Positions 24,078 through 54,593 of a stretch of 64,000 nt of DNA are shown piece after piece (position 1 is the first letter of the stretch; every line of letters begins with the position of its first letter). This DNA is from Rhizobium sp. Q54 (GTDB lineage: Bacteria > Pseudomonadota > Alphaproteobacteria > UBA828): assembly GCA_945892755.1 (NCBI GenBank), contig CAMDDO010000004.1, positions 3,099-67,098 on the forward strand. The letters run 5' to 3'. The translations under genes and the position numbers were made by a program. The notes under the pieces were generated by a model. The model was given only the letters and a program-made list of their open reading frames with translations. It had not been told where the DNA came from and ran no database searches.

Positions 24078-24079
24078 GC

Positions 24080-30731: not shown

Positions 30732-30738
30732 GCGCGCC

Positions 30739-32916: not shown

Positions 32917-32940
32917 CATGAGCCGGCATGGAGATCGTGG

Positions 32941-33297: not shown

Positions 33298-33311
33298 GTT
33301 TGTAGAGAGAC

Positions 33312-35147: not shown

Positions 35148-35151
35148 CGCG

Positions 35152-36702: not shown

Positions 36703-36745
36703 TTCCTTTCGCGCCAATCGATGCGTCCCTCCAAGAGATTACGTC

Positions 36746-40872: not shown

Positions 40873-41398
40873 ACCTATCGAAACCGCACGCTTGCGCCTC
40901 GAACCGTTCGGCGAGGCGCACTTGACCGAGATTTATGTTGCTTGGCTGAATGATCCCGAGATCGTGCGCTATAGCGAGCAACGCCATCGGCGGCACAATC
41001 TCGAAGGCAGTCGCCTTTGGGTTCAGTCCATGCGTGCGGGTGGCCATCCGCTCTGGGCGATCGAGGCAAAGAATCCACCGCTTGGTCATATCGGCAATAT
41101 TGCGGCCTATGTTGATGCGCCCAACCGGCTTGCGGATGTCAGCATTTTGATCGGCGCGCGCGCGGCGTGGGGCAAGGGCCTTGGCGCGGAGGCCTGGCGC
41201 GCGGCGTGTGACTGGCTGCTCGACTGCGCGCTCTTGCGTAAAGTCACCGGCGGTACCATGGCAGCCAATCGCGCGATGGTGCGCGTGATGGAACGCACCG
41301 GCATGCGCCCCGATGGCATGCGCGCCGGGCAATTTCTCCTCGATGGCGAAGCCGTCGATCTCGTGCACTATGCGCGCTTCGCGCCCAATCAAAGCTAG
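40859..41398 (+). CDS. GNAT-family acetyltransferase (RimL-like)
   Basis: RLEPFGEAHLTEIYVAWLNDPEIVRYSE N-terminus paralogous to the GNAT at 45741. GNAT core WGKGLGAEA. Confidence 0.7.
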   Translation: MPAAEPIETARLRLEPFGEAHLTEIYVAWLNDPEIVRYSEQRHRRHNLEGSRLWVQSMRAGGHPLWAIEAKNPPLGHIGNIAAYVDAPNRLADVSILIGARAAWGKGLGAEAWRAACDWLLDCALLRKVTGGTMAANRAMVRVMERTGMRPDGMRAGQFLLDGEAVDLVHYARFAPNQS

Positions 41399-41448: not shown

Positions 41449-42522
41449 TTGTCGCCCAGGACGTCTGAGAACAAGCCGCGCCAAGCCAGCCAATTCGGAG
41501 CGCGTCGCTTCGATGCGCCGACACCAGAGCTCGATGGCAAAACCATCCTTGTTACCGGCGGCACGGGCTCGTTCGGCAAGGCCTTTGTGCGCCATGTGCT
41601 CAGTCATCATCGGCCGCGCAAGGTGATCGTGTTCTCGCGCGATGAGTTCCGCCAATACGAGATGGCGCAGACCATCGGTACCGAGCCGGGTCCGGCGATC
41701 CGCTATTTTATCGGCGACGTGCGCGACGGCGACCGGCTCGAATTCGCCATGCGCGATGTCGATCATGTGATCCACGCCGCGGCGCTCAAACATGTGCCGA
41801 CCGCCGAGTACAATCCGTTCGAATGTATCCAGACCAATATTCACGGCGCCGAAAATGTCGTGAAGGCGGCGATCCGTACCGGCGTGACGCGCGTCGTCGC
41901 GCTTTCGACCGACAAGGCGGCAAATCCAATCAATCTCTATGGCGCAAGCAAGCTCGCCTCTGACAAGATCTTCGTTGCCGCGAACAGCCTTGCCGGGCGG
42001 AGCCCGACGCGGTTCTCGGTCGTTCGTTATGGCAATGTGCTCGGTTCGCGCGGCAGCGTGATCCCGTTCTTCGAGAAGCTCATCGCCGACGGGGCCACGG
42101 CGCTGCCGATCACCGATCCGCGCATGACGCGATTCTGGATCACGCTGAGCCAAGGCGTGCGTTTCGTGTTGTCGTCGCTCGCCATGACCAGCGGTGGCGA
42201 GATTTTTGTGCCGCGCATACCGAGCATGAAGATGGTCGATGTCGCGTCGGCGCTCGCGCCTAACCTGAAGCACGACATCATCGGCATTCGTCCGGGTGAG
42301 AAGCTCCATGAGATGATGATCGGCGAAGATGACGGACGCACCACATTGGCGCTCGATGATCGCTATGTGATCGAACCGGCCTTTTCCTATTGGACGCGCG
42401 AATCCGCCGCCAAATATGGCGGTCGCCCGGTCGAAAGCGGGTTCTGCTATGCCAGCGACAGCAATGATGAATGGCTCGGCGCCGAGGCCTTGCGCACGCT
42501 CCTGAAGGAGCCGCGCACCTGA
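41449..42522 (+). CDS. pseB: UDP-GlcNAc 4,6-dehydratase (inverting), PseB/FlaA1/CapD family
   Basis: ILVTGGTGSFGKAF, short-chain dehydratase layout with the characteristic C-terminal extension. Probable TTG start. Confidence 0.85.
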   Translation: MSPRTSENKPRQASQFGARRFDAPTPELDGKTILVTGGTGSFGKAFVRHVLSHHRPRKVIVFSRDEFRQYEMAQTIGTEPGPAIRYFIGDVRDGDRLEFAMRDVDHVIHAAALKHVPTAEYNPFECIQTNIHGAENVVKAAIRTGVTRVVALSTDKAANPINLYGASKLASDKIFVAANSLAGRSPTRFSVVRYGNVLGSRGSVIPFFEKLIADGATALPITDPRMTRFWITLSQGVRFVLSSLAMTSGGEIFVPRIPSMKMVDVASALAPNLKHDIIGIRPGEKLHEMMIGEDDGRTTLALDDRYVIEPAFSYWTRESAAKYGGRPVESGFCYASDSNDEWLGAEALRTLLKEPRT

Positions 42523-42547
42523 GCGCATCGATGTCGAAGCAACTCCA

Positions 42548-43771
42548 ATGACGTTTCTGCCCTATGGTCGCCAGCAGATCGATGACGACGATATCGCCGC
42601 CGTCACGGCGGTGCTGCGCGGCGATTGGCTCACCACCGGCCCAGCGGTCGAGGCCTTCGAGCGCGCGTTTGCTGAAAGAGTGGGCGCGCCTTATGCCGTC
42701 GCCTGCTCGAGCGGCACAGCGGCACTGCACCTTGCAATGCTCGCGCTTGGGTTCGGCCCGGGCGACATCGCGATCGTGCCCGCACTTACCTTTGTCGCGA
42801 CCGCTAATGCCGCGCGCTATGTTGGCGCAGACGTGGTCTTCGCCGATGTCGAGCCCGCGACCGGGCTGATGGGGCCGGCACATTTGAGCGACGCCATAGC
42901 GCAAGCGCACCGCATCTTTCCGACGAGTCGTGTCCGGATCGCGCTGCCCGTGCATCTGAATGGCCAAGCGTGCGACATGGCGGGCCTCGCGCGCATTGCA
43001 GATGCCGAGGGAATTGCGCTGGTCGAGGACGCTTGCCATGCCCTGGGCGGCATGGCGGGCGCTGCGCCGGAGGATCGTATTGGCGCGTGCCGACACAGCG
43101 CCATGGCCACCTTTTCGGGACATCCGGTCAAAACGATTGCGATGGGTGAAGGTGGTGTGGTGACCACGCGAGACGGGGCGATCGCCGCAAAACTACTCCG
43201 ACTGCGCGCGCATGGCATTACGCGCGAGTCGTCGCGCTTCACTGAACGGGTACAGGCCTTTGACGGCGACGGGCAGGTGAATGCCTGGTATCACGAGCAG
43301 GTCGAGCTGGGCTTCAATTATCGGGCGAGCGACCTGCATTGTGCCCTCGGCCTGAGCCAGCTCAAGAAGCTCGATCGTTTCATCGCGGCGCGTGATCGGT
43401 TGGTCGGGCACTATCGAAAAGCGCTGGCGCCTTTTGCACCTATTGTCCGACCACTCGGTCTCGCCGGTCACGGAACGCCGGCTTGGCATTTGTTCGTCGC
43501 GCTGATCAATTTCGATGCCGCCGGCATCTCACGCAACACGACGATGGCGCGACTGAAGGCCAAGGGAATTGGCACGCAGGTTCATTATTTGCCGGTCAAT
43601 CGCCAGCCTTATTACCGCGCGCGCTATGGCGTGACCACGTTGCCGGGCGCCGATGCCTATTATGCCCAAGCGCTCTCTCTGCCGCTTCATGCAGAAATGA
43701 CAGAAAACGACGTCGACCGCGTGCTCGTTGCGCTGGGCGAGATACTTGGGCAATCGGGGCGATCGACATGA
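42548..43771 (+). CDS. pseC: UDP-4-keto-6-deoxy-sugar aminotransferase (PseC/DegT family)
   Basis: DegT fold, TFSGHPVKTIAMGEGG PLP lysine region, immediately after pseB. Confidence 0.85.
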   Translation: MTFLPYGRQQIDDDDIAAVTAVLRGDWLTTGPAVEAFERAFAERVGAPYAVACSSGTAALHLAMLALGFGPGDIAIVPALTFVATANAARYVGADVVFADVEPATGLMGPAHLSDAIAQAHRIFPTSRVRIALPVHLNGQACDMAGLARIADAEGIALVEDACHALGGMAGAAPEDRIGACRHSAMATFSGHPVKTIAMGEGGVVTTRDGAIAAKLLRLRAHGITRESSRFTERVQAFDGDGQVNAWYHEQVELGFNYRASDLHCALGLSQLKKLDRFIAARDRLVGHYRKALAPFAPIVRPLGLAGHGTPAWHLFVALINFDAAGISRNTTMARLKAKGIGTQVHYLPVNRQPYYRARYGVTTLPGADAYYAQALSLPLHAEMTENDVDRVLVALGEILGQSGRST

Positions 43772-45744
43772 CGGCCGCAGACCAGAATCGGGTCGGGGCG
43801 ATTGTCGAGTCCGCCTTGGGTATGGACCACGCGATTGCCCGATTTGGCGAGGCCAATACGCTGATCTCGACAACGTCGCCGTTCGTGCTTGAGAAATGCC
43901 GAATTCTTGGGCGCCGCTGCTTCGCGATCGATGGTTCATTGCCGCAAGCCAAGGCCGATTCGATCGGTTACGCATCACTGCGCGCGACGAGCGATATCAC
44001 GGATCTCGTGGATTCCGCCGCGACAAGTGATGAGCCGCCCTTTGGTTGGGCCTTGCTGCCCCAGCTGCACCGGATGCTGACTGCCTTTCTTTACAAGGCC
44101 CATCTACTTGATCACGTGATGCGGGAGTGCGCGAATGACGGACGCTTGTGGACCGTCGGTCATTCCGAAGCGCGAGCGGTGCGCGGCTTCAACGTCATGA
44201 TCAACCGTTTCGACACGCTTTTTACAGTGCTGGGTGCACGGCGTGGCATTCCACATATCGGACTAGAAGCGCCAGAGCCGTCGGGCGCTGCTGAAACCGG
44301 CGATTTTATGCGGCCATCAATCTGGACTCGGATGGTCACTGTGATGAATGCGCCGGCGACGAGCGTGTTCTATCGGCTGTGGCGCGGGCCTCTGAAGGGT
44401 CGTGCCTTGGCGCTTGTGCCGGGGTGGAACCGTAATCCGATCGTTGTCGTGCACCGTGGCAACGAAATGATCGAAGAAATCCTACCGAGGCTTCTCTTGC
44501 GCGGCTGTGAAATTCGCCGCTTGCCGCGCTTGCATTCTACGTCCGACGAGGTTGATGCGCCCCCGACGGTCAGCCTCGAAGCCATCACGGCTCGGATTAA
44601 ACGCCGCTGTGTCGATGCCGAGTTAGGCTGGAGCGATACCCTCCAGATCGCGGCGATGCAGGCTGGGGAGCGCCTGCGCACGGCGTTGCGTCATGGTCCG
44701 AGCTTGTGGCGCTCCACCGAGGTTTGTGTCGAAGAATTGAAGCGCGACGCGCGCGGTCGGCCGCTCGGTCTTTTGACCAATGCCATGGCCAGTGGGCAAG
44801 AGCGCCTGCTGCGCCATGCGCTCGACCGACATGGTATTCAATCGTTCGTTGCAGAGCACGGCGTTGCGCCAGGTTTGAGCCCGATGCATGAAGCGCTCTA
44901 CGCCATCGACAAGGTGGCAAGCCTGCGGCGTACGCTGCTCTATACGCCGGCGCAACACCGTCTTTATGAGCGATCCATCGGCGTGGCGGAGGCGGCCAAT
45001 TGTCCGGTGGTTGGTGTGCCGCGCCTGGTTCGCAAAATCGGCATGCGGCCAATTCAGCGCGTCGCGGTGCGTGCCGCGCTCGGTGCCAAAGGTCGCCTCG
45101 CGATATGGTGCACCGCGCTTTATCCGAACAATTTTCAGTTTCTGCCGCATTATTGGCGTGACACGCCGTACCACGAAATAAGGCGTCGCGTGGTCACCGA
45201 CGTCTTTGGCAAAATTTCCGACCATGTCGTGCTCAAGCTCTACCCAACCTATCGCTATGTCGATCCTGATCCGCTTGCTGGGCTTATGACTCTACCGCCC
45301 AATTGTCGGGTCGAGCAATTCACCGATTTTCGCAATCTGCGCGCAGCGGCGGACCTGATTGTCGTCGATGGCCCCGGCAGTGTGATGGCGTGGGCGTGGA
45401 GCACGAATGTGCCGTTCATCTACCTCGAAACCGGCATGTATGGGCTCGACGCAACGGTGCGACAGGCGCTAGAACGCAGTGCCTTTGTGGTGGACGTCGC
45501 CGACCAGGATTGGGCGGACCGATTCTTGGCGTTGCTTCGGCTCGACCATAGGGCGCTGGTGGCGCGTTTCGCGGCAAAAAGCGCGGAGCGCGAGAGTTTC
45601 GCGACGGAATATGCGCTTGGTCCCAAGGGCGGGGCCGGCCGGCTGGGCAGTGCCTACATTCATGCGAGCTTGACGAAGCGAGAAGGACAGGGCGTGCAAA
45701 CGGTCGCGCTCAGCAACGAACCGCGCGCGGAACCGCGGTCATGA
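43768..45744 (+). CDS. large (658-aa) uncharacterised protein, possibly TagF/Capsule_synth-like transferase
   Basis: C-terminal LKLYPTYRYVD...IVVDGPGSVMAWAWSTNVPFIYLETG resembles the LYAPTWR region of CDP-glycerol glycerophosphotransferase-like GT-B enzymes. Weak. Confidence 0.4.
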   Translation: MTAADQNRVGAIVESALGMDHAIARFGEANTLISTTSPFVLEKCRILGRRCFAIDGSLPQAKADSIGYASLRATSDITDLVDSAATSDEPPFGWALLPQLHRMLTAFLYKAHLLDHVMRECANDGRLWTVGHSEARAVRGFNVMINRFDTLFTVLGARRGIPHIGLEAPEPSGAAETGDFMRPSIWTRMVTVMNAPATSVFYRLWRGPLKGRALALVPGWNRNPIVVVHRGNEMIEEILPRLLLRGCEIRRLPRLHSTSDEVDAPPTVSLEAITARIKRRCVDAELGWSDTLQIAAMQAGERLRTALRHGPSLWRSTEVCVEELKRDARGRPLGLLTNAMASGQERLLRHALDRHGIQSFVAEHGVAPGLSPMHEALYAIDKVASLRRTLLYTPAQHRLYERSIGVAEAANCPVVGVPRLVRKIGMRPIQRVAVRAALGAKGRLAIWCTALYPNNFQFLPHYWRDTPYHEIRRRVVTDVFGKISDHVVLKLYPTYRYVDPDPLAGLMTLPPNCRVEQFTDFRNLRAAADLIVVDGPGSVMAWAWSTNVPFIYLETGMYGLDATVRQALERSAFVVDVADQDWADRFLALLRLDHRALVARFAAKSAERESFATEYALGPKGGAGRLGSAYIHASLTKREGQGVQTVALSNEPRAEPRS

Positions 45745-46328
45745 GCGAGAAGCTTTATGCCGAACGTCTGGTCGGCGAACGGGTCGTGCTCAAGCGCCTG
45801 CACGAAGCGGCGGTTGACGAGGCCTATTTGCGCTGGATGAACGATCCCGAGGTAACACGCTATCTCCAGGCGCGCTTCGAGCCGCGTGACATGGCGAATT
45901 TGCGCGCCTTCGTGGCGGGATTCGATCATCGCGATCGCTTTATCTTCGGCGTCCACGCCGATGACCGATTCATCGGAACCGGCACGCTCCGAGTCAATCC
46001 GAACCATCGCTTCTCGAGTATCGGCTATTTGATCGGTGAAACGGACTATTGGCGCGGCGAGATCTCGCTGGATGTCTGCCGCACACTGCTCGATTTCGTC
46101 TTCTTCGAACGCAATGTAAGGAAAGTGGTCGAACCGACCACCGAGAATCACGTCGCCTCGAACTTCAATTTCAAGCGCCTGGGGTTCACGCTGACCGCGC
46201 GCATTCCTGACCTATACTGGGGCGGTGACCGCTATCACGCAGCGATCTATTGGTCGATGGCGATTGAGGAATGGGCGCGGCTGCGTGGTCGCGGAGTTCC
46301 AACGATACCCCATCCGGCCGTGGCATGA
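45741..46328 (+). CDS. GNAT-family acetyltransferase (RimL/PseH-like)
   Basis: GNAT fold, paralogous to 40859..41398. Confidence 0.7.
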   Translation: MSEKLYAERLVGERVVLKRLHEAAVDEAYLRWMNDPEVTRYLQARFEPRDMANLRAFVAGFDHRDRFIFGVHADDRFIGTGTLRVNPNHRFSSIGYLIGETDYWRGEISLDVCRTLLDFVFFERNVRKVVEPTTENHVASNFNFKRLGFTLTARIPDLYWGGDRYHAAIYWSMAIEEWARLRGRGVPTIPHPAVA

Positions 46329-47512
46329 CAGTTCTGCCAGCCCTTGGCACAAGGCGAGAGCTTGCGGTTGAGGTGACCGAAGCGCTGATCGAGCGTTTCG
46401 GTGCGCTGACCGGCGATCGCAACCCAATGCATTTCGATGATGCGTTCGCGCGTGCCCATGGCCTGCCGGGCCGGGTGGCGCACGGTATGGCCTACGTGTC
46501 TTTTCTTTCAACCCTCGTCGGAATGCATCTGCCGGGTCCGGGTGCGTTGTGGGCGTCGCAGACCTTACGATTTCTGAAACCGGTGCGTCCTGGCGACCGA
46601 GTCGTACTTAGTGGCGTCGTGACGCGACGCTCCGAGCGAACCGGCGCGCTGGCGATCGAGATCACGGGCGTCGATCAAGGCGGCATAGCTGTATTCTCCG
46701 GTGAAGCGGAGGTGCTGGTACCGACGGCCGCAGCGGCACCGACCATGACCGAGAGCAACGCGGCTGCGAAGGATCGAAGCGACCCGCGCGCGGCCTATGT
46801 CTTCGGCGCCTCGGGCGCGCTTGGCAGCGCCATCGCGACGCGGCTCGCGCGTGCCGGTCATCCGGTCGGTTTGGTTGGCCGGCGGCTTGATGTCTTGGAG
46901 CGGCTGGGCGCCGATCTGCGCGGTCCTTCCATGGCGGTTTACGGTGATTTGGCCGATGCGGCGAGTATCGGTTCCGCCGCGACCGAGCTCACCGCGCGGC
47001 TCGGGGCACCGGTCATCGTGGTGCATTGCGCGAGCGCGCCGTTACGCCGCCAAGGCATGGAGGACGTCGGTTGGGCCGATTTGGCGCCACACTTCGCCGT
47101 GCAGGCCGGTGGTCTGGTCAATCTCGTCCAAGCCTTCCAGGCCCCAATGCGTGATGCCGGCGGTGGTGTCTTTATCTATGTCGGTAGCGTCGCGACGCAT
47201 GGCACCCCGCCGGCCAAGCTCGCCGCCTATGCCGCCGCAAAGGCGGCGGGCGCCTCGCTGCTACGCTCGATGGCGCTCGAGTTCGCGCCATTCGGGATTC
47301 GCGCCAACATCGTCTCCCCAAGTTTTCTGGCGACGGACCTGAACGCGCATGTCGATGAACGCACGCGCAAGCTGGTCGCCGCCCAGACTCCGATGCGGCG
47401 CCTCGCCGCGCTCGATGAGATTGCCGCGGCGGTCGCCTTCCTCGCCGGGGCCGACGGTTCGTTCGTCAACGGCCACGACCTCGTGGTCGATGGCGGCGTG
47501 GCGATGCAATGA
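46325..47512 (+). CDS. MaoC-like (R-hydratase hot-dog) :: SDR (FabG-like reductase) fusion
   Basis: N-terminal GDRNPMHFD...VAHGM hot-dog motif. C-terminal SDR with GASGALGSAIA and a YxxxK region (AAYAAAKAA). Confidence 0.75.
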   Translation: MTVLPALGTRRELAVEVTEALIERFGALTGDRNPMHFDDAFARAHGLPGRVAHGMAYVSFLSTLVGMHLPGPGALWASQTLRFLKPVRPGDRVVLSGVVTRRSERTGALAIEITGVDQGGIAVFSGEAEVLVPTAAAAPTMTESNAAAKDRSDPRAAYVFGASGALGSAIATRLARAGHPVGLVGRRLDVLERLGADLRGPSMAVYGDLADAASIGSAATELTARLGAPVIVVHCASAPLRRQGMEDVGWADLAPHFAVQAGGLVNLVQAFQAPMRDAGGGVFIYVGSVATHGTPPAKLAAYAAAKAAGASLLRSMALEFAPFGIRANIVSPSFLATDLNAHVDERTRKLVAAQTPMRRLAALDEIAAAVAFLAGADGSFVNGHDLVVDGGVAMQ

Positions 47513-49284
47513 TTGACCCGATGGCGCTAACCGCTGCCGCGCGTTCGGCGTTTCGGAGCGAGCTGCGCCATGACGCGAGGCTGATGAGCTATCTCAAGGC
47601 GCTCAAGCGCCTGCCTGAAGCGGGCGCCGCGCGCCGGGTGCTATTCGCGTCGTCCTACAGCGTGCGACCGCTCGAGCCCTATTTGTGCGTCGAGGCGGCC
47701 CTCGCGGGCTGGCGACTTGAGCCGCGATTTGTTGAATACGGCCAATGGCAGCAGGCGCTGATTGCGGGCTCGGGTGGGGCAGAGCCCGACGCCTATGTGC
47801 TCATGCTCCACCCGGAGAGTTTGCTCGCCGCCGCCGGCAACATGGCGACGCACATTGACGCTGCTGAAACTTCGATCGCCGCCGTGTTCCGCTCCTTCCG
47901 CGCACGCTCGAGGACGCCGTTCTTTGTGCTTCATCTGCCTCCGCCTCGACCGCTCGGCGCCATTGGTTTCGGCCAAGGCGGCACGCCGCGGCGTATCGAT
48001 GCGGCGACTGAGCTCTGCCATCGGATCGCGACGCTCGCGAAGAATCTTGATGCAACCTACGTGATCGATCTCTCGGCCACGCCAAAGGTTGCCGGCGCAT
48101 GGCAAGACGATAAGGGGCTTCAGGCCTCGTTATCACCCGTAGCGAGCCATGCCGCGCCCCTGATCGCCGAGGCTATTGCTCGCTCGGTCGCACCTTTGTT
48201 CCGGCCGCGCCGCAAGATTCTGGTTGTCGACCTCGACAACACGCTTTGGGGCGGCGTTGTCGGCGAAGTCGGCAGTGAGGGCGTGAGCCTCGGCGCGGGT
48301 TGGCCCGGGGCCGCCTATTTAGCGTTTCAGCGGATCATCCGTGAGCTCGGGGAAAGTGGCGTCTTGCTGGCGCTTAACAGCAAGAACAATGAATCCGATG
48401 CGCGCGCGGTGTTCGAAACGCGCACCGAGATGGTCCTGCAATGGAACGATTTCGCGGCGCGCCGTGTGAATTGGTGTGATAAGGCCGAAAATCTCGCGAG
48501 TATCGCCGATGAATTGTCGCTCGGGATCGAGAGTTTTGTGTTCGCCGACGATAGCCCCGTCGAATGCGCACGAATTCGAGCAGCATTTCCCGATGTCGAG
48601 GTGATCCAATTGTCCGACGACCCGACGGGGTTGGTCGAAGCATTGTTAGGCTGTCCGGGTTTTGACATGCTGAGCGTGACCGACGAAGACCGGGGGCGCA
48701 CGGAGAGCTACCGTTCGGAATCCGAACGAAGCGCGCTGCGCCAAACGACAGGAGATTACCGCGCGTTCCTGCGCTCCCTGTCCCTGGAGATCGACATCAC
48801 ACCCTGTGACGGTAGTTCATTGGAGCGTCTGCATCAGCTTTTGCTCAAGACGAATCAGTTCCATTTCACGCTCGAGCGACCGGCCAAAACCGAACTGGGC
48901 GCGCGGGCCAATCGGCTCTTCTCGGTACGTTTGCGCGATCGCTTTGGTGACTATGGCATCATCGGCGTGCTGGAGACCGCCGTGCGGCGCGATGCGGTCG
49001 AGATCGTCAATCTCGCGCTCAGCTGTCGCGCGTTGGGGCGTCTGGTCGAGGAAACGGTACTGGCGTTCGTCGCCGAAATCGCGCGTGCGACCGGTGTTGC
49101 GGCGCTCAGCGCCAGATCGGTGGTCGGGCCGCGCAACCAGCCGGCCCTCGATTTTCTCGACAAAGCCGGCTTCCGTCCGCACGGACCGGTACTTCGGCTA
49201 CCGATCGGTCCGGACGCTCCGGCCTATCCCGCCGAGGCGATGGTAAGCCGGCCCGAGCCGGTAATCTTGGAGCGTACATGTTAG
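47509..49284 (+). CDS. FkbH-like protein (HAD-superfamily IIIC phosphatase domain)
   Basis: KILVVDLDNTLWGGVVGEVG signature of the FkbH domain (glyceryl-ACP forming enzymes). Confidence 0.75.
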   Translation: MIDPMALTAAARSAFRSELRHDARLMSYLKALKRLPEAGAARRVLFASSYSVRPLEPYLCVEAALAGWRLEPRFVEYGQWQQALIAGSGGAEPDAYVLMLHPESLLAAAGNMATHIDAAETSIAAVFRSFRARSRTPFFVLHLPPPRPLGAIGFGQGGTPRRIDAATELCHRIATLAKNLDATYVIDLSATPKVAGAWQDDKGLQASLSPVASHAAPLIAEAIARSVAPLFRPRRKILVVDLDNTLWGGVVGEVGSEGVSLGAGWPGAAYLAFQRIIRELGESGVLLALNSKNNESDARAVFETRTEMVLQWNDFAARRVNWCDKAENLASIADELSLGIESFVFADDSPVECARIRAAFPDVEVIQLSDDPTGLVEALLGCPGFDMLSVTDEDRGRTESYRSESERSALRQTTGDYRAFLRSLSLEIDITPCDGSSLERLHQLLLKTNQFHFTLERPAKTELGARANRLFSVRLRDRFGDYGIIGVLETAVRRDAVEIVNLALSCRALGRLVEETVLAFVAEIARATGVAALSARSVVGPRNQPALDFLDKAGFRPHGPVLRLPIGPDAPAYPAEAMVSRPEPVILERTC

Positions 49285-49553
49285 TGGCACCTCCGCGGGA
49301 AGAAGTACGGCGAACTCTCGTCGATATATTCGTCACGGTTCTCGGCCTTCCGGAATCCGCAATCAGGGACGGGCTCTCGCCGGACAATTGCACGACGTGG
49401 GATTCGCTCCGCCATATCCAGCTGTGCACTGCGATCGATCAAAGCTTCGGCATTGCGCTCGATATCGCGCAGCAGGTCGAGATGCTGAATTTCGGCTTGG
49501 CGCTCGATACGGTGCTCCGCGCGCTGGAGCCGGCCGGTCCGAGGGAAAGGTGA
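49278..49553 (+). CDS. acyl carrier protein
   Basis: 91 aa, acidic, with DSL phosphopantetheine attachment motif (WDSLRHIQL). Confidence 0.65.
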   Translation: MLVAPPREEVRRTLVDIFVTVLGLPESAIRDGLSPDNCTTWDSLRHIQLCTAIDQSFGIALDIAQQVEMLNFGLALDTVLRALEPAGPRER

Positions 49554-49557
49554 TCGC

Positions 49558-50232
49558 ATGAGGCAGAGCGCCAACGCCGATGAGTTGATGTGGCGGATCT
49601 TCAATCAGTTCCACTATCACTGCGACACGCACAGATTCCAAAAGCTTCTGGCGCGCGCCGAGATGGTGCGACGTGTCGCCGACGTGCCGGGTGACATCGT
49701 CGATTGCGGCACGTTCAAGGGCATCAGCACGATCCAGTTCGCCCACTTTCTCGAGATTTATCGGCCGCATGGCCTCGCCAAAGTGGTCAGCTTCGATACC
49801 TTCGAAGCAATGTTCCCGCGCGTGCGCGCTGACGAAACGAAGAGCGCCAAGGAGCACATGGACAAGCTCTACGAAGAGCGTGCGCTCGATCAAATCACCG
49901 AGGCCGTTGGGCGGCTCAGCCTCGGCCATCGCGTCGAGATCATCAAGGGCGATATCGTCGAGACCCTGCCGGCATTCCTGGCCGACAAGCCGGGTTTCCG
50001 CATCAGCCTCCTGCATTGCGATCTCGACGTCTATGAGGCGACCAAGACGGTGCTCAAACTGGCCTGGCCGCGCGTCTCGCGCGGCGGTGTCGTGTTGTTC
50101 GACGAATATGCCGTGCGCAATTGGGGCGAATCGGACGCGGCGGACGAGTTCCTCGCCACGCTGCCCAATCCGCCGCGGCTGCGCACGCTCGACCGCACGC
50201 CGACCCCGACCGCCTATCTGATCAAGGAATAG
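49558..50232 (+). CDS. class I SAM-dependent O-methyltransferase (TylF/MycF macrocin-O-MT-like)
   Basis: GDIVDCGTFKGIST glycine motif and GGVVLFDEY acidic motif. Confidence 0.7.
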   Translation: MRQSANADELMWRIFNQFHYHCDTHRFQKLLARAEMVRRVADVPGDIVDCGTFKGISTIQFAHFLEIYRPHGLAKVVSFDTFEAMFPRVRADETKSAKEHMDKLYEERALDQITEAVGRLSLGHRVEIIKGDIVETLPAFLADKPGFRISLLHCDLDVYEATKTVLKLAWPRVSRGGVVLFDEYAVRNWGESDAADEFLATLPNPPRLRTLDRTPTPTAYLIKE

Positions 50233-50248: not shown

Positions 50249-51751
50249 ATGAAGTGGTTCAAGCAGGTCGAGGCCGGGCGGCGCGCCTATCACGCGGACG
50301 CCACGCTCAATAGCGTGCACCGCTCCTCGCTCCTTGTGCCGAGGCTCGATGGCGCGGCGGTCGATATCAGTTTCCTCAACCACTTCCTCCTGAAACGCGG
50401 CTATGGCGAGGTCGCCTGCCGCGTGACCAAAATCGACGGCGCCGGCAAGCGCATTCAATCTCGGTTTATCAAGGTCGACGCGCCAAGGGCGTATACGTTC
50501 GCACTCGGCGACGAGGCGCATGACGAGGCGGCCGACTTCATGGTCGAGTTTTTCGCCGCCGACAATCTGTTCATCCCGTTTCCCGCCGTGATGGTGAACC
50601 ATCGCGGCCCGCGCTTCCTCAACACCGTGCATGCCTATAATCGCGTGCTGAATGACGTGTTCGAGGACGACAGCATCAACACGAAGCCGCAGCTTGAGGC
50701 CGCGATCGATGTGCGCCTCGATGACGCGGCGTCGACCATGCTGGTGGTCCAGGCCGGGCAACAGCGCTGCGCGGGCGCGCTCGATATCCGGCTCAAACAG
50801 GGCGCGGCGGAGCATCGCAAGGACGTGCCGATCGATGTGCCGCGCTTCGGCCATCGGGAGATCGCGCTCGGCGATTTGTTCGCGCATCTGGGCACGATAC
50901 AGGGCGGCATTCTCACGGTCGGACAGCCCCAACAGACGATGTTTTTCGGGCGTCTTCTGGTTGGCCAGCGCGCGCGCGACGGCGCGTTCTCGGCCAATCA
51001 CAGTTATTATGATTCATCCGATGTCGCCGAATATTGGGACGATTCGCGACCCTCGATCAGGCTCTACCCCTATATCGCCGAGCTTGAGACCTTGATCCGG
51101 TTCTACCCGATCCAATCGCCCGGCCGGCTCAATATCGAGATCGTCGCTCATGGCGCGGATGGCGCGCGCCTGTCGACCCACGAGGCCGGCGAATTGGTTT
51201 CGCCCGGCACGCGCCATCTCGACCTATCGGTCAGCGGGCTTTTGCGCCGGCAGGGCGCGCGCGCCGCCGATGTCTCGGCCTTCGCCGTCAGCGCGCGCCC
51301 GATCGATGGCAAGACGCCGACACGCATCAACCATCAGCTCGTCTATCGCGATGGCGGGCTTGAATCATCGATCAACATGTCGCTGACCAATCCGAATATT
51401 TTCGCCCCCGCCGGCAAACGCGGCTATGCCTGGGGTCAGTTGCCGGTCGGGACGGCGATCGATTCGTGGCTCGGCATCACCACCAACACGCCCGAGGGCG
51501 AGGCGTGCGCCGTCGCGCTCTCGATCTATGACGAGAGCGGGCTCCGCGCGCGGCGCGACCTCTCCTTGCGTCCGGGCGCCGCCCATGTCCTCCGCCTGCA
51601 TGACATCTTGCCCGATGGCGCGCTCGCGCGCGCGGACACCGCGCTCGATTATCTCTGGTTCACGCTGGAATCAGCCCGGGCGGATGTGTTCGGCTATGCC
51701 GTCACCAGGCACAAGCTGTCGCGGCAATGCTCGGGCGAGCATGCGTTCTGA
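50249..51751 (+). CDS. hypothetical 500-aa protein, no recognisable domain
   Basis: Tightly packed between the O-MT and pseG; no known motifs. Confidence 0.5.
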   Translation: MKWFKQVEAGRRAYHADATLNSVHRSSLLVPRLDGAAVDISFLNHFLLKRGYGEVACRVTKIDGAGKRIQSRFIKVDAPRAYTFALGDEAHDEAADFMVEFFAADNLFIPFPAVMVNHRGPRFLNTVHAYNRVLNDVFEDDSINTKPQLEAAIDVRLDDAASTMLVVQAGQQRCAGALDIRLKQGAAEHRKDVPIDVPRFGHREIALGDLFAHLGTIQGGILTVGQPQQTMFFGRLLVGQRARDGAFSANHSYYDSSDVAEYWDDSRPSIRLYPYIAELETLIRFYPIQSPGRLNIEIVAHGADGARLSTHEAGELVSPGTRHLDLSVSGLLRRQGARAADVSAFAVSARPIDGKTPTRINHQLVYRDGGLESSINMSLTNPNIFAPAGKRGYAWGQLPVGTAIDSWLGITTNTPEGEACAVALSIYDESGLRARRDLSLRPGAAHVLRLHDILPDGALARADTALDYLWFTLESARADVFGYAVTRHKLSRQCSGEHAF

Positions 51752-51769: not shown

Positions 51770-52789
51770 ATGAACGCGCCGCTCGCGTTGTTTCGGCTTG
51801 ATGCGACGCCTTCGCTCGGCGTCGGCCATTTGGCGCGCTGCCACGTGCTGGCCGAGGCGTTGAAGGGAGAGGGCTGGCGCACGCGCTTCGCGGTCTCGGC
51901 CGAAACCGCGTCGAGCGTCGGCGCGCCGCGTGACGCGATCATCGTGCCACCCGAATCGATGGACGAGCCGCGCGCGCTTGGCGACGCGGAGCCAAAGGGA
52001 TGCGATCTTCTGGTGGTCGATCATTATGGCCGCGACGCGGCGTTCGAACGCGCCTGCCGGCCCTGGGCGCGGCATATTCTCGTGCTCGACGATCTGGCCG
52101 ATCGGGCCCACGACGCCGACGCTCTGCTCGACCCCACACCAGGCCGGAATCCGGCGGATTACGCCAACCTCGTGCGGACCGACACGCGCCTCCTGCTCGG
52201 GCCGAGCCATGCACTGCTCGACGCGCGCTTTGCCGCCGCCCGACCCATGGCGCTGGCGCGGCGTCGCGCGGGCGGTGCGGCCGCGCGCGTTCTCATCAGC
52301 CCGGGCGGCACCGATCCGGCCGATGTGGCGAGCCTCGCGCTCGATGCCCTTGTCGGCCTGGAGCCGGCGCTCGTCGCCGACGTGGCGCTGCTGCCGAGCG
52401 CGCCGCATCTTGCGCGCACGCGCGCACGCGTCGGACCGCGCGTCACCTTGCATTGTCCCGCCGAGGACATGGCGGCTTTGATGGTCGAGGCCGATGTCGC
52501 GATCGGCGCAGCGGGCGGCAGCGCCTGGGAGCGTTGCTGCCTCGGCCTGCCAATGCTGCTCGTCATCACGGCCGAGAATCAGCGGCTCAATGCGCGACGC
52601 CTGGAAGACGCAGGCGCCGCTCTTGTCGTTGGTGAGGCAAGCCACGTGACGGTTGAGAGCTTTCGCCGAGAGATCGTCGAGTTGGTGAGCGATGCGAGTC
52701 GCCGTCGACGCATGGCCGAAGCGGCGGCATTATTATGCGATGGCGAAGGCGTACGCCGCGTGCTCTCGATCATCAAGGAAGGCGTATGA
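51770..52789 (+). CDS. pseG: UDP-2,4-diacetamido-2,4,6-trideoxy-beta-L-altropyranose hydrolase
   Basis: FRLDATPSLGVGHLARCHVLAEAL N-terminus typical of PseG. MurG-like GT-B fold. Confidence 0.8.
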   Translation: MNAPLALFRLDATPSLGVGHLARCHVLAEALKGEGWRTRFAVSAETASSVGAPRDAIIVPPESMDEPRALGDAEPKGCDLLVVDHYGRDAAFERACRPWARHILVLDDLADRAHDADALLDPTPGRNPADYANLVRTDTRLLLGPSHALLDARFAAARPMALARRRAGGAAARVLISPGGTDPADVASLALDALVGLEPALVADVALLPSAPHLARTRARVGPRVTLHCPAEDMAALMVEADVAIGAAGGSAWERCCLGLPMLLVITAENQRLNARRLEDAGAALVVGEASHVTVESFRREIVELVSDASRRRRMAEAAALLCDGEGVRRVLSIIKEGV

Positions 52790-53847
52790 GCCTACCCTCG
52801 CTGCAGCCAGTCGCCATTGCCGGCCGCACCATCGGGCCCGGTTCGCCGCCTTACGTTGTTGCCGAACTCTCGGCCAACCACAAGGGCACGCTCGATCACG
52901 CCATCGCGATCATGCGCGCGGCCAAGGCGGCCGGGGCGGATGCGATCAAGCTGCAAACCTATACCGCGGATACCATCACGATCGCGCACAATGGCCCTGG
53001 CTTCCGCATCGAGCAGGGCCTATGGCGCGGCCGCACGCTGCATGAGCTTTATCAAGAGGCTCACACGCCATGGGTGTGGCATGACGCGCTGTTCGCGGAA
53101 GGCCGCGCGCTCGGCCTGCCGGTGTTCTCGACACCGTTCGATGCTAGCGCGATCGCCTTTCTCGAGCCTTTCGATCCGCCGGCCTACAAGATCGCGAGCT
53201 TCGAGCTGATCGATCTCGGTCTTATTCGCGCCGTCGCGGTGACTGGCAGGCCGCTCATCCTATCGACCGGCATGGCGAGTTATGCCGAAATCGAGGAAGC
53301 GGTCGGCGCTGCGCGCGGCGCGGGCGCGCGCCAGATCGTGCTTTTGCATTGCACCAGCGGTTATCCTACGCCGCCCGATGAGGCCAATCTCCGCACCATT
53401 CCGCATCTCGCCGAGAGCTTTGGCGTGCCGATCGGCCTGTCTGACCACACGCTCGGCATCGGCGTCGCGCTCGCCGCGGTGGCGCTCGGCGCCTGCCTGA
53501 TCGAGAAGCATTTGACGCTCCGCCGCGCCGATGGCGGGCCGGATGCCGCGTTCTCGCTCGAACCCGACGAACTCAAGAGCCTGGTCGACAATGCGCGCCT
53601 CGCTCATGCCGCGCTCGGCATGGTTACCTATGAGCGGCGCGCGAGCGAAGCCGGCAATATAGAATTTCGCCGCTCGCTCTATATCGTGCGCGACATGAAG
53701 GCCGGTGAACCGCTGACGCCCGAGACGCTGCGCTCGATCCGCCCGGGCCATGGCCTCCATCCGCGCCATTACGAGGCATTGCTCGGCAAGCGCGTGACGC
53801 GCGATGTCGCGCGCGGCACGCCGATGGCATGGGAATTGATCCGCTGA
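52786..53847 (+). CDS. pseI: pseudaminic acid synthase
   Basis: VVAELSANHKGTLDHA (PseI-type ELSANH motif), GLSDHT, C-terminal SAF domain. Confidence 0.9.
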   Translation: MSLPSLQPVAIAGRTIGPGSPPYVVAELSANHKGTLDHAIAIMRAAKAAGADAIKLQTYTADTITIAHNGPGFRIEQGLWRGRTLHELYQEAHTPWVWHDALFAEGRALGLPVFSTPFDASAIAFLEPFDPPAYKIASFELIDLGLIRAVAVTGRPLILSTGMASYAEIEEAVGAARGAGARQIVLLHCTSGYPTPPDEANLRTIPHLAESFGVPIGLSDHTLGIGVALAAVALGACLIEKHLTLRRADGGPDAAFSLEPDELKSLVDNARLAHAALGMVTYERRASEAGNIEFRRSLYIVRDMKAGEPLTPETLRSIRPGHGLHPRHYEALLGKRVTRDVARGTPMAWELIR

Positions 53848-54593
53848 TGGGCAAGACCGTCGCGATCATCCAGGCGCGCATGACCTCGAGCCGCCTACCC
53901 GGCAAGGTGCTGGCCGATCTCGGCGGCAAGCCGCTGATCGAGCGCATGATCGCGCGCGTGCGCCGCGCCCGCGCGCTGGACGCGATCTGGCTCGCTACCA
54001 CCGCCAAGACGACCGACGATCCGCTCGCGACCTTGTGCGACCGGCTCGGCGTACCCGTTCATCGCGGCGATGAGCATGATGTTCTGGCGCGCTTTCTCGG
54101 CGCCGCGCGGGCCGCCGAGGCCGATATCGTGGTCCGGCTCACGGCGGATTGTCCGATGAGCGACCCGGCGCTGATCGACGAGATCGTCGCCGATTATGGG
54201 AAGGGTGGCGCCGATTACGTCTCCAACGTGTTGGTGCGCACCTATCCCGATGGCCTCGACGTCGAGGTATTTTCATGCGCCGCGCTCGAAGACGCGGCGG
54301 CCAACGCGACGGAGCCGTTTCATCGCGAGCACGTCACGCCCTGGTTGCAAACCGGCTTTCGGCCCGGCTTGGCGACCGGGCGCTTTCGCGTGCGTCATGT
54401 CGTGAACGACATCGATCTCGGCGTCATGCGTTGGACGGTCGATGAGGCCGAGGATCTCGACTTAATTCGAAAGTTGTTCGCGGCCCTGCCCGAGGGCTTC
54501 GCCTGGCGCGACGCGCTCGCGCTGGTCAGCGTCAATGGCGAATTGGCCCGCCGCTCGCGCGTGCCCGAGGCTTATCTGAAGGCGGCGTCATGA
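53847..54593 (+). CDS. pseF: pseudaminic acid cytidylyltransferase-family protein (copy 3 of SpsF/PseF-like)
   Basis: VAIIQARMTSSRLPGKVL, directly after pseI. Confidence 0.7.
   Translation: MGKTVAIIQARMTSSRLPGKVLADLGGKPLIERMIARVRRARALDAIWLATTAKTTDDPLATLCDRLGVPVHRGDEHDVLARFLGAARAAEADIVVRLTADCPMSDPALIDEIVADYGKGGADYVSNVLVRTYPDGLDVEVFSCAALEDAAANATEPFHREHVTPWLQTGFRPGLATGRFRVRHVVNDIDLGVMRWTVDEAEDLDLIRKLFAALPEGFAWRDALALVSVNGELARRSRVPEAYLKAAS

What the first reader, a model, noticed from the sequence alone, without database searches (positions are those of the whole stretch)
46325..50232. FkbH-ACP-O-methyltransferase-MaoC/SDR acyl-ACP branch embedded in the pse module
An FkbH-like HAD protein (KILVVDLDNTLWGG), a stand-alone ACP (DSL motif), a TylF-like O-methyltransferase and a hot-dog-hydratase::FabG-reductase fusion lie between pseC and pseG. 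FkbH/ACP/O-MT is the enzymology that makes glyceryl- and methoxymalonyl-ACP in polyketide pathways. Here it is placed to supply a non-acetyl acyl group for N-acylation of the 5- or 7-amino group of the nonulosonate, for example (O-methyl)glyceroyl or 3-hydroxybutyryl. Such decorations are chemically known on Pse in other bacteria, but their genetic basis is poorly defined.
Basis: partly seen in the sequence, partly recalled or inferred. Interest (0 to 1): 0.8.

Follow-up and report, generated by a model that had tools for sequence, protein, structure and literature searches.

The report
Hydroxyacyl-ACP branch in a pseudaminic-acid operon
Inside an operon that makes the sialic-acid-like sugar pseudaminic acid sits a four-gene cassette that uses the enzyme set polyketide synthases use to turn a glycolytic intermediate into carrier-bound lactate, and it most likely supplies an unusual N-acyl group, probably lactyl, for that sugar.

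Summary
Window 46325-50232 encodes a MaoC-hydratase::SDR fusion, an FkbH-family protein (TIGR01686, 270 bits against a cutoff of 147, DLDNT motif intact), a 91-aa acyl carrier protein (invariant WDSL serine) and a TylF-family O-methyltransferase. All lie between pseC and pseG.

An acyl-ACP branch feeding N-acylation of the nonulosonate is well supported. In 9 of 9 sampled loci that carry the MaoC::SDR fusion, FkbH and the ACP follow it directly, always in NeuB/Pse- or Leg-type clusters. It is joined to its neighbours by ATGA overlaps.

MaoC, SDR, FkbH and ACP occur fused, in that order, at the start of two plasmid-borne PKS genes. This is the lactate-starter loading module, so I predict glyceryl-ACP is converted through pyruvoyl-ACP to lactyl-ACP. 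N-lactyl pseudaminic acid is chemically known (Psychrobacter marincola, 2020).

The methyltransferase is accessory (4 of 10 loci) and resembles sugar O-methyltransferases (CalS11), not FkbG. 3-Hydroxybutyryl is unlikely because no ketosynthase is present.

I rate it a new variant of a known kind, with moderately high interest.

The parts
45741..46328 (+). GNAT_b: 195-aa GNAT (Acetyltransf_3) N-acyltransferase, the proposed acyl-ACP:amino-sugar N-acyltransferase.
   Evidence: PF13302 5e-15. No PseH match. ATGA overlaps with both neighbours. Lies directly upstream of MaoC::SDR in L001, L005, L006, L087, L088, L089 and L094, and directly upstream of FkbH in L078.
46325..47512 (+). MaoC (R-hydratase hot-dog)::SDR (FabG-like) fusion. 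Proposed glyceryl-ACP dehydratase plus 2-oxoacyl-ACP reductase, analogous to DH*-KR*.
   Evidence: PF01575 2.5e-21 and PF13561 3.8e-38. D31, H36 and G54 of the hydratase-2 motif and K306 are invariant, Y302 nearly so, in 34 homologues. The family has at least about 130 representative clusters at 50% identity with this ~390-430 aa fusion length. 31% identical (E = 7e-8) to the N-terminal MaoC domain of a PKS loading module.
47509..49284 (+). FkbH-family HAD-IIIC glyceryl transferase/phosphatase. Proposed to load a glyceryl unit from 1,3-bisphosphoglycerate onto the ACP.
   Evidence: TIGR01686 2e-80, 270.3 bits against a cutoff of 146.65. DLDNT at 241-245. D241, D243, S291, K292, D347, D348 and C506 are invariant in 30 homologues. 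The same motifs are invariant against two PKS FkbH domains. The HAD part matches PDB 3slr at 1e-32.
49278..49553 (+). Dedicated 91-aa acyl carrier protein.
   Evidence: The orthologue profile hits only ACPs in the PDB, best E = 1.6e-6. The WDSL serine (S43) is invariant. Its start overlaps the FkbH stop by 7 nt.
49558..50232 (+). TylF-family O-methyltransferase. An accessory tailoring enzyme; its substrate is unresolved (a sugar hydroxyl or the acyl hydroxyl).
   Evidence: PF05711 3.2e-17. Best solved relative is CalS11, a TDP-rhamnose 3'-O-methyltransferase, at 1.4e-20. Present in the window, L001, L005 and L088. Absent from L006, L087, L089, L094, L095 and L096.
50249..51751 (+). Conserved 500-aa protein of unknown function. 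It co-occurs with the TylF methyltransferase.
   Evidence: No Pfam, NCBIfam or PDB sequence match. Orthologues occur only in the loci that have TylF. The single-sequence AlphaFold model was unusable, pLDDT 34.
43768..45744 (+). 658-aa GT-B-fold protein. A candidate transferase for a nucleotide-activated donor, co-conserved with the cassette in the alphaproteobacterial-type loci. It is not part of the acyl chemistry.
41449..43771 (+). pseB (41449-42522) and pseC (42548-43771). They make UDP-4-amino-4,6-dideoxy-beta-L-AltNAc, the proposed acyl acceptor.
   Evidence: TIGR03589 513.8 bits (cutoff 407.75) and TIGR03588 464.3 bits (cutoff 423.5).
51770..56377 (+). Rest of the Pse pathway: pseG (51770-52789), pseI (52786-53847), CTP_transf_3 cytidylyltransferase (53829-54593), and a PseH-like GNAT fused to a class-III aminotransferase (54590-56377).
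   Evidence: PseG 206.3 bits (cutoff 153.55) and PseI 475.5 bits (cutoff 340.25). PF02348 7.9e-31. The GNAT domain's best match is PseH TIGR03585 at 1.5e-10, which is below the cutoff.

Best explanation
The block is a discrete-enzyme copy of the polyketide 'lactate starter' loading module, recruited into a pseudaminic-acid operon to supply a C3 hydroxyacyl N-substituent.

Proposed steps:
1. FkbH takes 1,3-bisphosphoglycerate, removes the phosphate through its HAD aspartates, and passes the glyceryl unit via the conserved C-terminal cysteine to the phosphopantetheine arm of the adjacent ACP. This is inferred from family membership and conserved residues.
2. The MaoC hot-dog domain removes the 3-OH and 2-H of glyceryl-ACP. 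The enol product tautomerises to pyruvoyl-ACP.
3. The fused SDR reduces the 2-keto group to give lactyl-ACP. Steps 2 and 3 are inferred from the domain fusions in PKS modules.
4. The GNAT encoded immediately upstream (45741-46328) transfers the acyl group from the ACP to an amino group of the Pse pathway. The most likely acceptor is the C4 amine of the PseC product, which becomes N7 of Pse. N5 is not excluded. This is inferred from synteny.
5. PseG, PseI and the cytidylyltransferase complete and activate the sugar.
6. The TylF-type methyltransferase is an optional tailoring enzyme. It acts either on a sugar hydroxyl or on the lactyl hydroxyl.

Gene identities, motifs, operon structure, co-occurrence and the PKS fusions are shown by tool results. 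Every chemical step is inferred.
For: - Family assignments and intact catalytic motifs.
- ACP identity.
- Translational coupling: pseC, the GT-B gene, the GNAT, MaoC::SDR and FkbH are joined by 4-nt ATGA overlaps, and FkbH/ACP by a 7-nt overlap.
- Co-occurrence: 9 of 9 loci retrieved through FkbH or MaoC::SDR homologues carry MaoC::SDR-FkbH-ACP in a NeuB-containing cluster.
- In a phylum-wide sample of 80 FkbH loci, a MaoC homologue with FkbH appears in 13 loci (11 of them also with an SDR match). These include Acidobacteriota, Myxococcota, Burkholderiales, Nitrospinota, Patescibacteria and a thaumarchaeote.
- In the acidobacterial locus L055 the cassette lies beside PglF/PglE-type 4-amino-4,6-dideoxyhexose genes, a GNAT and NeuB. 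The common denominator is therefore a 4-amino-sugar / nonulosonate pathway plus an N-acyltransferase.
- Rosetta-stone fusions: two PKS genes begin with MaoC-SDR-FkbH-PP-binding-KS in the same order, one on a Streptomyces anulatus plasmid (L090) and one on Ensifer canadensis pT173a (L092). Their sequences are similar to the window proteins.
- A published rule table gives '1,3-bpg + ACP -> D-lactate-ACP' for FkbH loading modules (PMC7901079). From my own knowledge, not retrievable here: He et al. 2014, Angew Chem, showed for FR901464 that DH* converts glyceryl-ACP to pyruvoyl-ACP and KR* converts that to L-lactyl-ACP.
- Chemical precedent: 5-N-[(R)-2-hydroxypropanoyl]-7-N-acetyl-Pse in the Psychrobacter marincola capsule, and N-(R)-2-hydroxypropionyl-perosamine in V. 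cholerae O144 (PMC7281560).
- No ketosynthase, acyltransferase or CoA ligase that could load another acyl group was seen in any cassette locus.
Against: - No biochemical or glycan data exist for this organism, which is uncultured. Its closest genome is a Pacificispira MAG at 52% identity.
- Similarity of the MaoC and SDR domains to the PKS modules is low (25-31% identity). Those two PKS modules are not themselves characterised.
- A PseH-like GNAT domain is also present. The canonical N7 acetylation may therefore still occur, and the position of the new acyl group is unresolved. The known lactyl-Pse carries it on N5, and no deacetylase is recognisable in this window, although some other cassette loci have one.
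- Use of an acyl-ACP donor by this GNAT is inferred from position only.
- Glyceroyl and di-O-methylglyceroyl Pse are the better-documented C3 decorations (PMC5378307, PMC3068675). A methyltransferase lies next to the ACP here.
Confidence: 0.5

Rival explanations
1. FkbH and the ACP make glyceryl-ACP, which is transferred as N-glyceroyl or, after TylF-type methylation, as O-methylglyceroyl. The MaoC::SDR fusion only adjusts the unit, for example by inverting C2 stereochemistry through oxidation and reduction, or it acts elsewhere.
For: - Glyceroyl-Pse (Tannerella forsythia Pse5Am7Gra) and di-O-methylglyceroyl-Pse (C. jejuni 11168) are established structures whose genetics are unresolved.
- The C. 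jejuni flagellin glycosylation locus has an FkbH-domain gene, cj1302.
- In this window the methyltransferase starts 4 nt after the ACP stop.
Against: - The methyltransferase is absent from 6 of 10 cassette loci, whereas MaoC::SDR is invariant.
- The methyltransferase's closest solved relatives methylate sugars: CalS11, MycF and NovP.
- The hot-dog catalytic Asp/His pair is invariant, so dehydration chemistry is under selection.
- The PKS fusions tie MaoC-SDR to FkbH-ACP as one processing line.
Confidence: 0.22
2. The cassette delivers a 3-hydroxyacyl group such as (R)-3-hydroxybutyryl. MaoC hydrates crotonyl-ACP, or the SDR reduces acetoacetyl-ACP. FkbH has some other role.
For: - 3-Hydroxybutyryl is the most common non-acetyl acyl group on Pse and Leg (my own knowledge; the abbreviation Hb is listed in PMC5378307).
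- The SDR's best family matches are FabG and acetoacetyl-CoA reductase, and the MaoC domain matches the (R)-specific enoyl-CoA hydratase 5cpg at about 1e-19.
Against: - No ketosynthase, malonyl/acyl transferase or CoA ligase was found in any of the cassette loci to build or load a C4 unit.
- FkbH is the only ACP-loading enzyme and is invariant next to the fusion (9 of 9 loci).
- This reading leaves the MaoC-SDR-FkbH-ACP fusions unexplained.
Confidence: 0.06
3. The acyl-ACP product is not destined for the pseudaminic acid nitrogen. It acylates another component of the island's glycan, for example the amino sugar implied by the GFO / DegT / GNAT set at 37549-41398, or an O-position, or a lipid.
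For: - The island encodes a second aminotransferase/GNAT module and a second NeuB set.
- FkbH-ACP pairs are used with MBOAT proteins for other glycan acylations, for example on S. meliloti pSymB next to rkpRST.
- A PseH-like domain could already fill N7.
Against: - The cassette is translationally coupled to pseC and to the GNAT.
- It travels with a 4,6-dehydratase, a C4 aminotransferase and NeuB in unrelated phyla, where the other modules differ.
- No MBOAT or membrane acyltransferase was seen in the cassette loci examined.
Confidence: 0.12

Closest known systems
PKS 'lactate starter' loading module, DH*-KR*-FkbH-ACP. FR901464/spliceostatin Fr9 and bryostatin BryA are cited from my own knowledge. 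Uncharacterised examples were found here on Streptomyces anulatus plasmid NZ_CP109126.1 and Ensifer canadensis pT173a.
   Same: The same four domain types (MaoC hot-dog, SDR, FkbH, carrier protein) occur in the same order. FkbH motifs are shared: DxDNTLW, SKN, DD, NQF and SCR. The MaoC hydratase motif is conserved.
   Different: Here the parts are three separate proteins (MaoC::SDR, FkbH, ACP). No ketosynthase follows. The product is handed to a GNAT within a sugar pathway, not to a polyketide chain. The hot-dog domain is single, not doubled. Sequence identity is only 25-40%.
Methoxymalonyl-/hydroxymalonyl-ACP extender-unit pathway: FkbG/H/I/J/K of FK506/FK520 and ZmaN/D/G/E of zwittermicin (my own knowledge).
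   Same: An FkbH homologue and a dedicated ACP load a glycolysis-derived C3 unit. An O-methyltransferase is nearby.
   Different: There is no FkbK-type 3-hydroxyacyl-CoA dehydrogenase and no FkbI-type acyl-CoA dehydrogenase. The methyltransferase is of the TylF/CalS11 type and is dispensable across loci. A MaoC::SDR fusion is present, which that pathway lacks.
[quoted passage not shown]
   Same: An FkbH-domain gene is embedded among pse genes. A C3 hydroxy-acid-derived N-acyl group replaces one acetyl on Pse: oxonium m/z 391 against 317, a difference of +74.
   Different: The only gene experimentally tied to that modification is cj1295. No role for cj1302 has been shown. I could not retrieve the C. 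jejuni sequences to compare them or to check for a MaoC::SDR fusion. The chemistry there is glyceroyl plus two methyl groups, not lactyl.
PseH (UDP-4-amino-4,6-dideoxy-beta-L-AltNAc N-acetyltransferase), the canonical N7 acylation step.
   Same: It has the GNAT fold, and the proposed acceptor is the same.
   Different: The cassette GNAT does not match the PseH model, whereas another domain in the operon does so weakly. Its proposed donor is an acyl-ACP, not acetyl-CoA.
MBOAT-ACP-FkbH glycan acylation sets, for example on S. meliloti pSymB next to rkpR/S/T (L091).
   Same: An FkbH-ACP pair has been recruited to surface-polysaccharide decoration.
   Different: That set has a membrane-bound O-acyltransferase partner, no MaoC::SDR and no GNAT, and it is not inside a nonulosonate pathway.

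Membership tests
FkbH family (TIGR01686; HAD-IIIC glyceryl transferase/phosphatase) | Full-length match to the FkbH domain model above the curated cutoff | tested here: met
   270.3 bits against a cutoff of 146.65, E = 2e-80, profile positions 3-320 of 323.
FkbH family (TIGR01686; HAD-IIIC glyceryl transferase/phosphatase) | HAD catalytic motifs: DxDxT nucleophile and acid, Ser/Thr, Lys and the acidic pair | tested here: met
   D241-L-D243-N-T, S291/K292 and D347/D348 are invariant in 30 homologues and in two PKS FkbH domains.
FkbH family (TIGR01686; HAD-IIIC glyceryl transferase/phosphatase) | Conserved C-terminal cysteine (SCR motif) for the acyl-enzyme intermediate, plus a cognate carrier protein | tested here: met
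   C506 is invariant. The ACP is encoded with a 7-nt overlap. The catalytic role of the cysteine is from my own knowledge.
FkbH family (TIGR01686; HAD-IIIC glyceryl transferase/phosphatase) | Loads a glyceryl unit from 1,3-bisphosphoglycerate onto the ACP | not testable with these tools
   Needs an in vitro assay with ACP mass spectrometry.
PKS lactate-starter loading module (DH*-KR*-FkbH-ACP) | MaoC-type dehydratase, SDR reductase, FkbH and carrier protein acting together, in that order | tested here: met
   The gene order MaoC::SDR-FkbH-ACP in the window is the same as the domain order in L090 and L092.
PKS lactate-starter loading module (DH*-KR*-FkbH-ACP) | Covalently part of a PKS, followed by a ketosynthase | tested here: not met
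   No ketosynthase occurs in the island or in any cassette locus. It works like this module but is not a member.
Methoxymalonyl-ACP pathway (FkbG/H/I/J/K) | FkbK-type 3-hydroxyacyl-CoA dehydrogenase and FkbI-type acyl-CoA dehydrogenase | tested here: not met
   No 3HCDH or acyl-CoA dehydrogenase domains occur among the operon proteins.
Methoxymalonyl-ACP pathway (FkbG/H/I/J/K) | FkbG-type O-methyltransferase acting on the ACP-bound unit | tested here: inconclusive
   The methyltransferase is TylF-family. Its nearest solved relative is CalS11, a TDP-rhamnose 3'-O-methyltransferase, at 1.4e-20. It is present in only 4 of 10 cassette loci.
Pseudaminic acid biosynthesis pathway (PseB/C/H/G/I/F) | PseB, PseC, PseG and PseI equivalogs above their curated cutoffs | tested here: met
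   513.8 against 407.75; 464.3 against 423.5; 206.3 against 153.55; 475.5 against 340.25.
Pseudaminic acid biosynthesis pathway (PseB/C/H/G/I/F) | PseH N-acetyltransferase and PseF cytidylyltransferase equivalogs | tested here: inconclusive
   The GNAT domain at 54590-55060 has PseH as its best match but below the cutoff (41.4 against 93.1). The CTP_transf_3 protein scores 21.5 against 205.7 for PseF.
Acyl carrier protein | Four-helix carrier fold family with a conserved DSL serine | tested here: met
   Pfam PP-binding alone is weak (E = 0.034). The orthologue profile hits only ACPs (1.6e-6), and WDSL is invariant.

The most novel reading that the evidence does not exclude
The GNAT-MaoC::SDR-FkbH-ACP cassette is the missing genetic basis of N-lactyl, and more broadly glycerate-derived C3 hydroxyacyl, nonulosonic acids. 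Under this reading, polyketide starter-unit chemistry has been co-opted as free-standing enzymes to decorate sialic-acid-like sugars in at least five bacterial phyla and apparently one archaeon. The reading also implies a new enzyme activity: a GNAT that uses an acyl-ACP donor, not an acyl-CoA donor, to N-acylate a nucleotide amino sugar.
Probability: 0.45. Interest if true: 0.72.

Novelty: new variant of a known kind. Interest (0 to 1): 0.62.

Why it matters
Nonulosonic acids on flagellins, capsules and LPS carry a wide range of N-acyl groups. These groups set antigenicity, phage recognition and surface charge. The genes that install anything other than acetyl or acetimidoyl are largely unknown. 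The Tannerella authors call the basis of the glyceroyl group 'a major challenge'.

This cassette gives a concrete pathway that can be tested in vitro from a glycolytic intermediate to an N-acylated Pse precursor. It also gives a genomic marker, MaoC::SDR next to FkbH, ACP and an N-acyltransferase gene inside a NeuB cluster. That marker can predict which organisms make lactyl-type rather than glyceroyl-type sugars.

It shows modular re-use of a PKS loading-module enzyme set in glycan biosynthesis. It would also provide enzymes for chemoenzymatic synthesis of modified Pse/Leg donors for vaccines and antibodies.

Tried and rejected
- Literature. 'FkbH + pseudaminic' gave one paper that only mentions cj1302. 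'FkbH + MaoC', 'FkbH + lactyl + dehydratase + ketoreductase', and cj1299-cj1303 gave nothing. The searches for BryA and FR901464 returned irrelevant papers. The DH*-KR* biochemistry is therefore cited from my own knowledge only.
- Profile search of 1.84 billion representatives with the MaoC::SDR fusion, hoping to reach PKS modules. The best 150 hits were mostly free-standing ~390-430 aa fusions. The ~525-570 aa hits tested were either MaoC-SDR proteins with a longer stretch between the two domains or tandem SDRs, and none was fused to a GNAT. The PKS fusions were found through plasmid tblastn.
- Organism identity. The genome-contig scan has no close match to this species. Cluster look-ups gave only unnamed MAG proteins.
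- The 658-aa unknown as an acyl-handling enzyme: rejected. It has a GT-B fold.
- The 500-aa unknown. There are no family or PDB hits. The single-sequence model was useless. The afdb50 library was unavailable.
- Flagellar context. There are no flagellar genes in the window. The island (about 22.9-60.4 kb) is bounded by housekeeping genes, so the glycan's carrier (flagellin, LPS or capsule) is unknown.

Full report
**What is there**

On the + strand, window 41.4-57.3 kb is one tightly packed operon.

| Coordinates | Product |
|---|---|
| 41449-42522 | pseB |
| 42548-43771 | pseC |
| 43768-45744 | 658-aa unknown |
| 45741-46328 | GNAT (GNAT_b) |
| 46325-47512 | MaoC::SDR fusion |
| 47509-49284 | FkbH-family protein |
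| 49278-49553 | 91-aa ACP |
| 49558-50232 | TylF-family O-methyltransferase |
| 50249-51751 | 500-aa unknown |
| 51770-52789 | pseG |
| 52786-53847 | pseI |
| 53829-54593 | CTP_transf_3 cytidylyltransferase |
| 54590-56377 | PseH-like GNAT fused to a class-III aminotransferase |
| 56377-57282 | aldo-keto reductase |
| 57317-60409 | sulfotransferase::ABC-exporter fusion |

From pseC through FkbH every junction is a 4-nt ATGA overlap, and FkbH and the ACP overlap by 7 nt.

**Checks on each protein**

- FkbH: TIGR01686 at 270 bits against a cutoff of 147. In a 30-sequence alignment D241, D243 (DLDNT), S291, K292, D347, D348 and C506 (SCR) are invariant. The same residues are invariant when the protein is aligned with FkbH domains from two PKS genes, from S. 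meliloti and from an acidobacterium.
- ACP: weak on its own (E = 0.034). A profile of seven orthologues hits only acyl carrier proteins in the PDB, down to 1.6e-6, and WDSL is invariant.
- MaoC domain: keeps the hydratase-2 motif. D31, H36 and G54 are invariant in 34 homologues.
- SDR domain: keeps its glycine motif and YxxxK.
- Methyltransferase: TylF family. Its nearest solved relative is CalS11, a TDP-rhamnose 3'-O-methyltransferase (1.4e-20), followed by MycF and NovP.

**Context elsewhere**

The organism is uncultured. The closest genome is a Pacificispira MAG at 52% FkbH identity.

I retrieved loci through FkbH homologues (L001, L005, L006) and through MaoC::SDR homologues (L087, L088, L089, L094, L095, L096). 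All nine show MaoC::SDR followed by a ~600-620-aa FkbH and a 60-87-aa ACP, always in a cluster with NeuB/PseI.

- In the alphaproteobacterial-type loci a ~190-215-aa Acetyltransf_3 GNAT lies directly upstream of the fusion (7 of 7 where that flank is on the contig).
- In the acidobacterial type (L055, L095) a 376-377-aa protein follows the ACP; the L055 copy has GNAT domains.
- In L078 (Myxococcota) the GNAT precedes FkbH.
- In L055 the neighbours are PglC/PglE/PglF-type genes, not PseB/PseC.

The constant companions are therefore a 4,6-dehydratase, a C4 aminotransferase, NeuB and an N-acyltransferase. In a phylum-wide sample of 80 FkbH loci, 13 carry a MaoC homologue alongside FkbH, 11 of them with an SDR match as well. 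These include Burkholderiales, Nitrospinota, Patescibacteria and a thaumarchaeote. The fusion family is large: most of the 150 best-scoring representative clusters at 50% identity have the same ~390-430 aa fusion length. The TylF methyltransferase and the 500-aa unknown occur together in 4 of 10 cassette loci and at varying positions, so they are accessory.

**What the cassette most likely makes**

The decisive lead came from plasmid tblastn. A trans-AT PKS gene on a Streptomyces anulatus plasmid begins MaoC_dehydratas (9-99), adh_short (288-472), FkbH (~699-1032), PP-binding (1137-1202), KS. A PKS gene on Ensifer canadensis pT173a has the same five-domain start. The window's MaoC and SDR align to these (31% over 115 aa, E = 7e-8; 25-29% over ~300 aa). 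Its FkbH aligns at 35-40%.

The window's three genes are thus the unfused form of a known kind of loading module, in the same order. For such modules a published rule table gives 1,3-bisphosphoglycerate + ACP -> D-lactate-ACP (PMC7901079). From my own knowledge, He et al. 2014 (Angew Chem) showed for FR901464 that DH* dehydrates glyceryl-ACP to pyruvoyl-ACP and that KR* reduces it to L-lactyl-ACP. Bryostatin BryA has the same domain set.

The chemistry fits a MaoC enzyme: glyceryl thioester has a 3-OH and a 2-H, the elements a (R)-hydratase removes. I therefore propose this sequence: FkbH loads glyceryl. MaoC gives pyruvoyl. The SDR gives lactyl. The adjacent GNAT transfers lactyl to an amine of the Pse pathway.

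N-lactyl Pse exists. Psychrobacter marincola capsule contains 7-N-acetyl-5-N-[(R)-2-hydroxypropanoyl]-Pse, reported as the first lactic-acid-decorated Pse, and V. cholerae O144 has N-(R)-2-hydroxypropionyl-perosamine (PMC7281560).

**What remains open**

1. The position of the acyl group. Synteny (pseC, GT-B gene, GNAT) favours the C4 amine of the PseC product, which becomes N7. A PseH-like domain is also present, and the known lactyl-Pse is N5-substituted. Some cassette loci encode a deacetylase (Polysacc_deac_1 in L055 and L095, PIG-L in L096), but none is recognisable in this window.
2. The methyltransferase target. Its family points to a sugar hydroxyl, but methylation of the acyl hydroxyl cannot be excluded. 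2-Methoxypropanoyl would be isobaric with 3-hydroxybutyryl.
3. Whether the GNAT truly uses an acyl-ACP donor.

**Rivals**

C. jejuni has an FkbH-domain gene, cj1302, in its flagellin glycosylation locus. This reading leaves the invariant, catalytically intact MaoC::SDR without a role and leans on the dispensable methyltransferase.
- 3-Hydroxybutyryl lacks any loading or condensing enzyme.
- A target other than the nonulosonate is possible, but the conserved pairing with 4-amino-sugar/NeuB genes in unrelated phyla argues against it.

**Neighbouring unknowns**

- The 500-aa protein has no detectable relatives of known function.

**Comparison with the known, and novelty**

The block works like a PKS lactate-starter module but is not one, because there is no ketosynthase. 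It shares FkbH and an ACP with the methoxymalonyl-ACP pathway but lacks FkbK and FkbI. I found no paper that links FkbH with MaoC or that assigns a function to FkbH-type genes in nonulosonate clusters.

I rate it a new variant of a known kind. The enzymology is familiar. The free-standing architecture, the sugar-pathway destination and the implied acyl-ACP-dependent GNAT are not. Interest is moderately high because it turns an open question, the genetic basis of non-acetyl N-acyl groups on Pse and Leg, into a short list of direct experiments.

Noticed in passing
window 22989-37555: A second nonulosonate gene set lies upstream in the same island. It comprises NeuB (22989-24077), two AsnB-like glutamine amidotransferases (24080-25903 and 33312-35147), a class-I methyltransferase (26979-27821), a GFO/IDH/MocA oxidoreductase (28558-29571), a DegT aminotransferase (29508-30731), an NAD epimerase/dehydratase (30583-31845), two unknowns (25903-27027 and 35152-36702) and a CTP_transf_3 cytidylyltransferase (36692-37555). 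The organism probably makes two different nonulosonic acids, as C. jejuni does.
   Followed up: partly
window 37549-41398: A module of a GFO/IDH/MocA oxidoreductase, a second DegT aminotransferase, a 376-aa unknown whose orthologue in L006 shows a very weak UDP-GlcNAc 2-epimerase-like (GT-B) hit, and a second Acetyltransf_3 GNAT. This resembles an oxidise-transaminate-acylate route to a further amino sugar. In L089 a formyltransferase replaces the GNAT.
   Followed up: partly
window 57317-60409: A 1030-aa fusion of an N-terminal sulfotransferase domain (Sulfotransfer_3, 7e-23) to an MsbA/PglK/HepA-like ABC exporter. In related loci a plain ABC exporter sits upstream of pseB, and L089 has a separate sulfotransferase. 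This hints at a sulfated, lipid-linked glycan.
   Followed up: no
window 53829-57282: A glutamate-1-semialdehyde-aminomutase-like class-III aminotransferase is conserved in the alphaproteobacterial-type Pse islands. It is fused here to a PseH-like GNAT and elsewhere to the CTP_transf_3 cytidylyltransferase, and it is followed here by an aldo-keto reductase. Its role in nonulosonate synthesis is unexplained. It is absent from the acidobacterial cassette loci.
   Followed up: partly
window 50249-51751: A 500-aa protein that is highly conserved among its four orthologues (69% mean column identity) and has many invariant His, Asp and Asn residues. It has no Pfam, NCBIfam or PDB relative. It is found only where the TylF methyltransferase is present.
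   Followed up: partly
window 43768-45744: A 658-aa protein with no sequence-family match but a confident GT-B model closest to the CDP-alditol-using teichoic-acid polymerases TagF and TarL. It is co-conserved with the cassette in the alphaproteobacterial-type loci and may be the transferase for the modified sugar.
   Followed up: yes
L091 (S. meliloti pSymB, CP140934.1 1032913-1037948): An MBOAT protein, a protein annotated as a TonB-dependent receptor, an ACP and a 628-aa FkbH-like protein sit just upstream of the capsule export genes rkpR/S/T. FkbH hits occur on 40 Sinorhizobium plasmid records; the Sinorhizobium meliloti and S. kummerowiae records listed match over the same stretch of the query, but only this one was inspected. 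This looks like a separate FkbH/ACP-dependent polysaccharide O-acylation system.
   Followed up: partly
L055, L095, L096: In other phyla the cassette is accompanied by a deacetylase (Polysacc_deac_1 or PIG-L). This would allow replacement of the original 2-N-acetyl group, which becomes N5 of the nonulosonate. It matches the N5 position of lactyl in the Psychrobacter structure.
   Followed up: no
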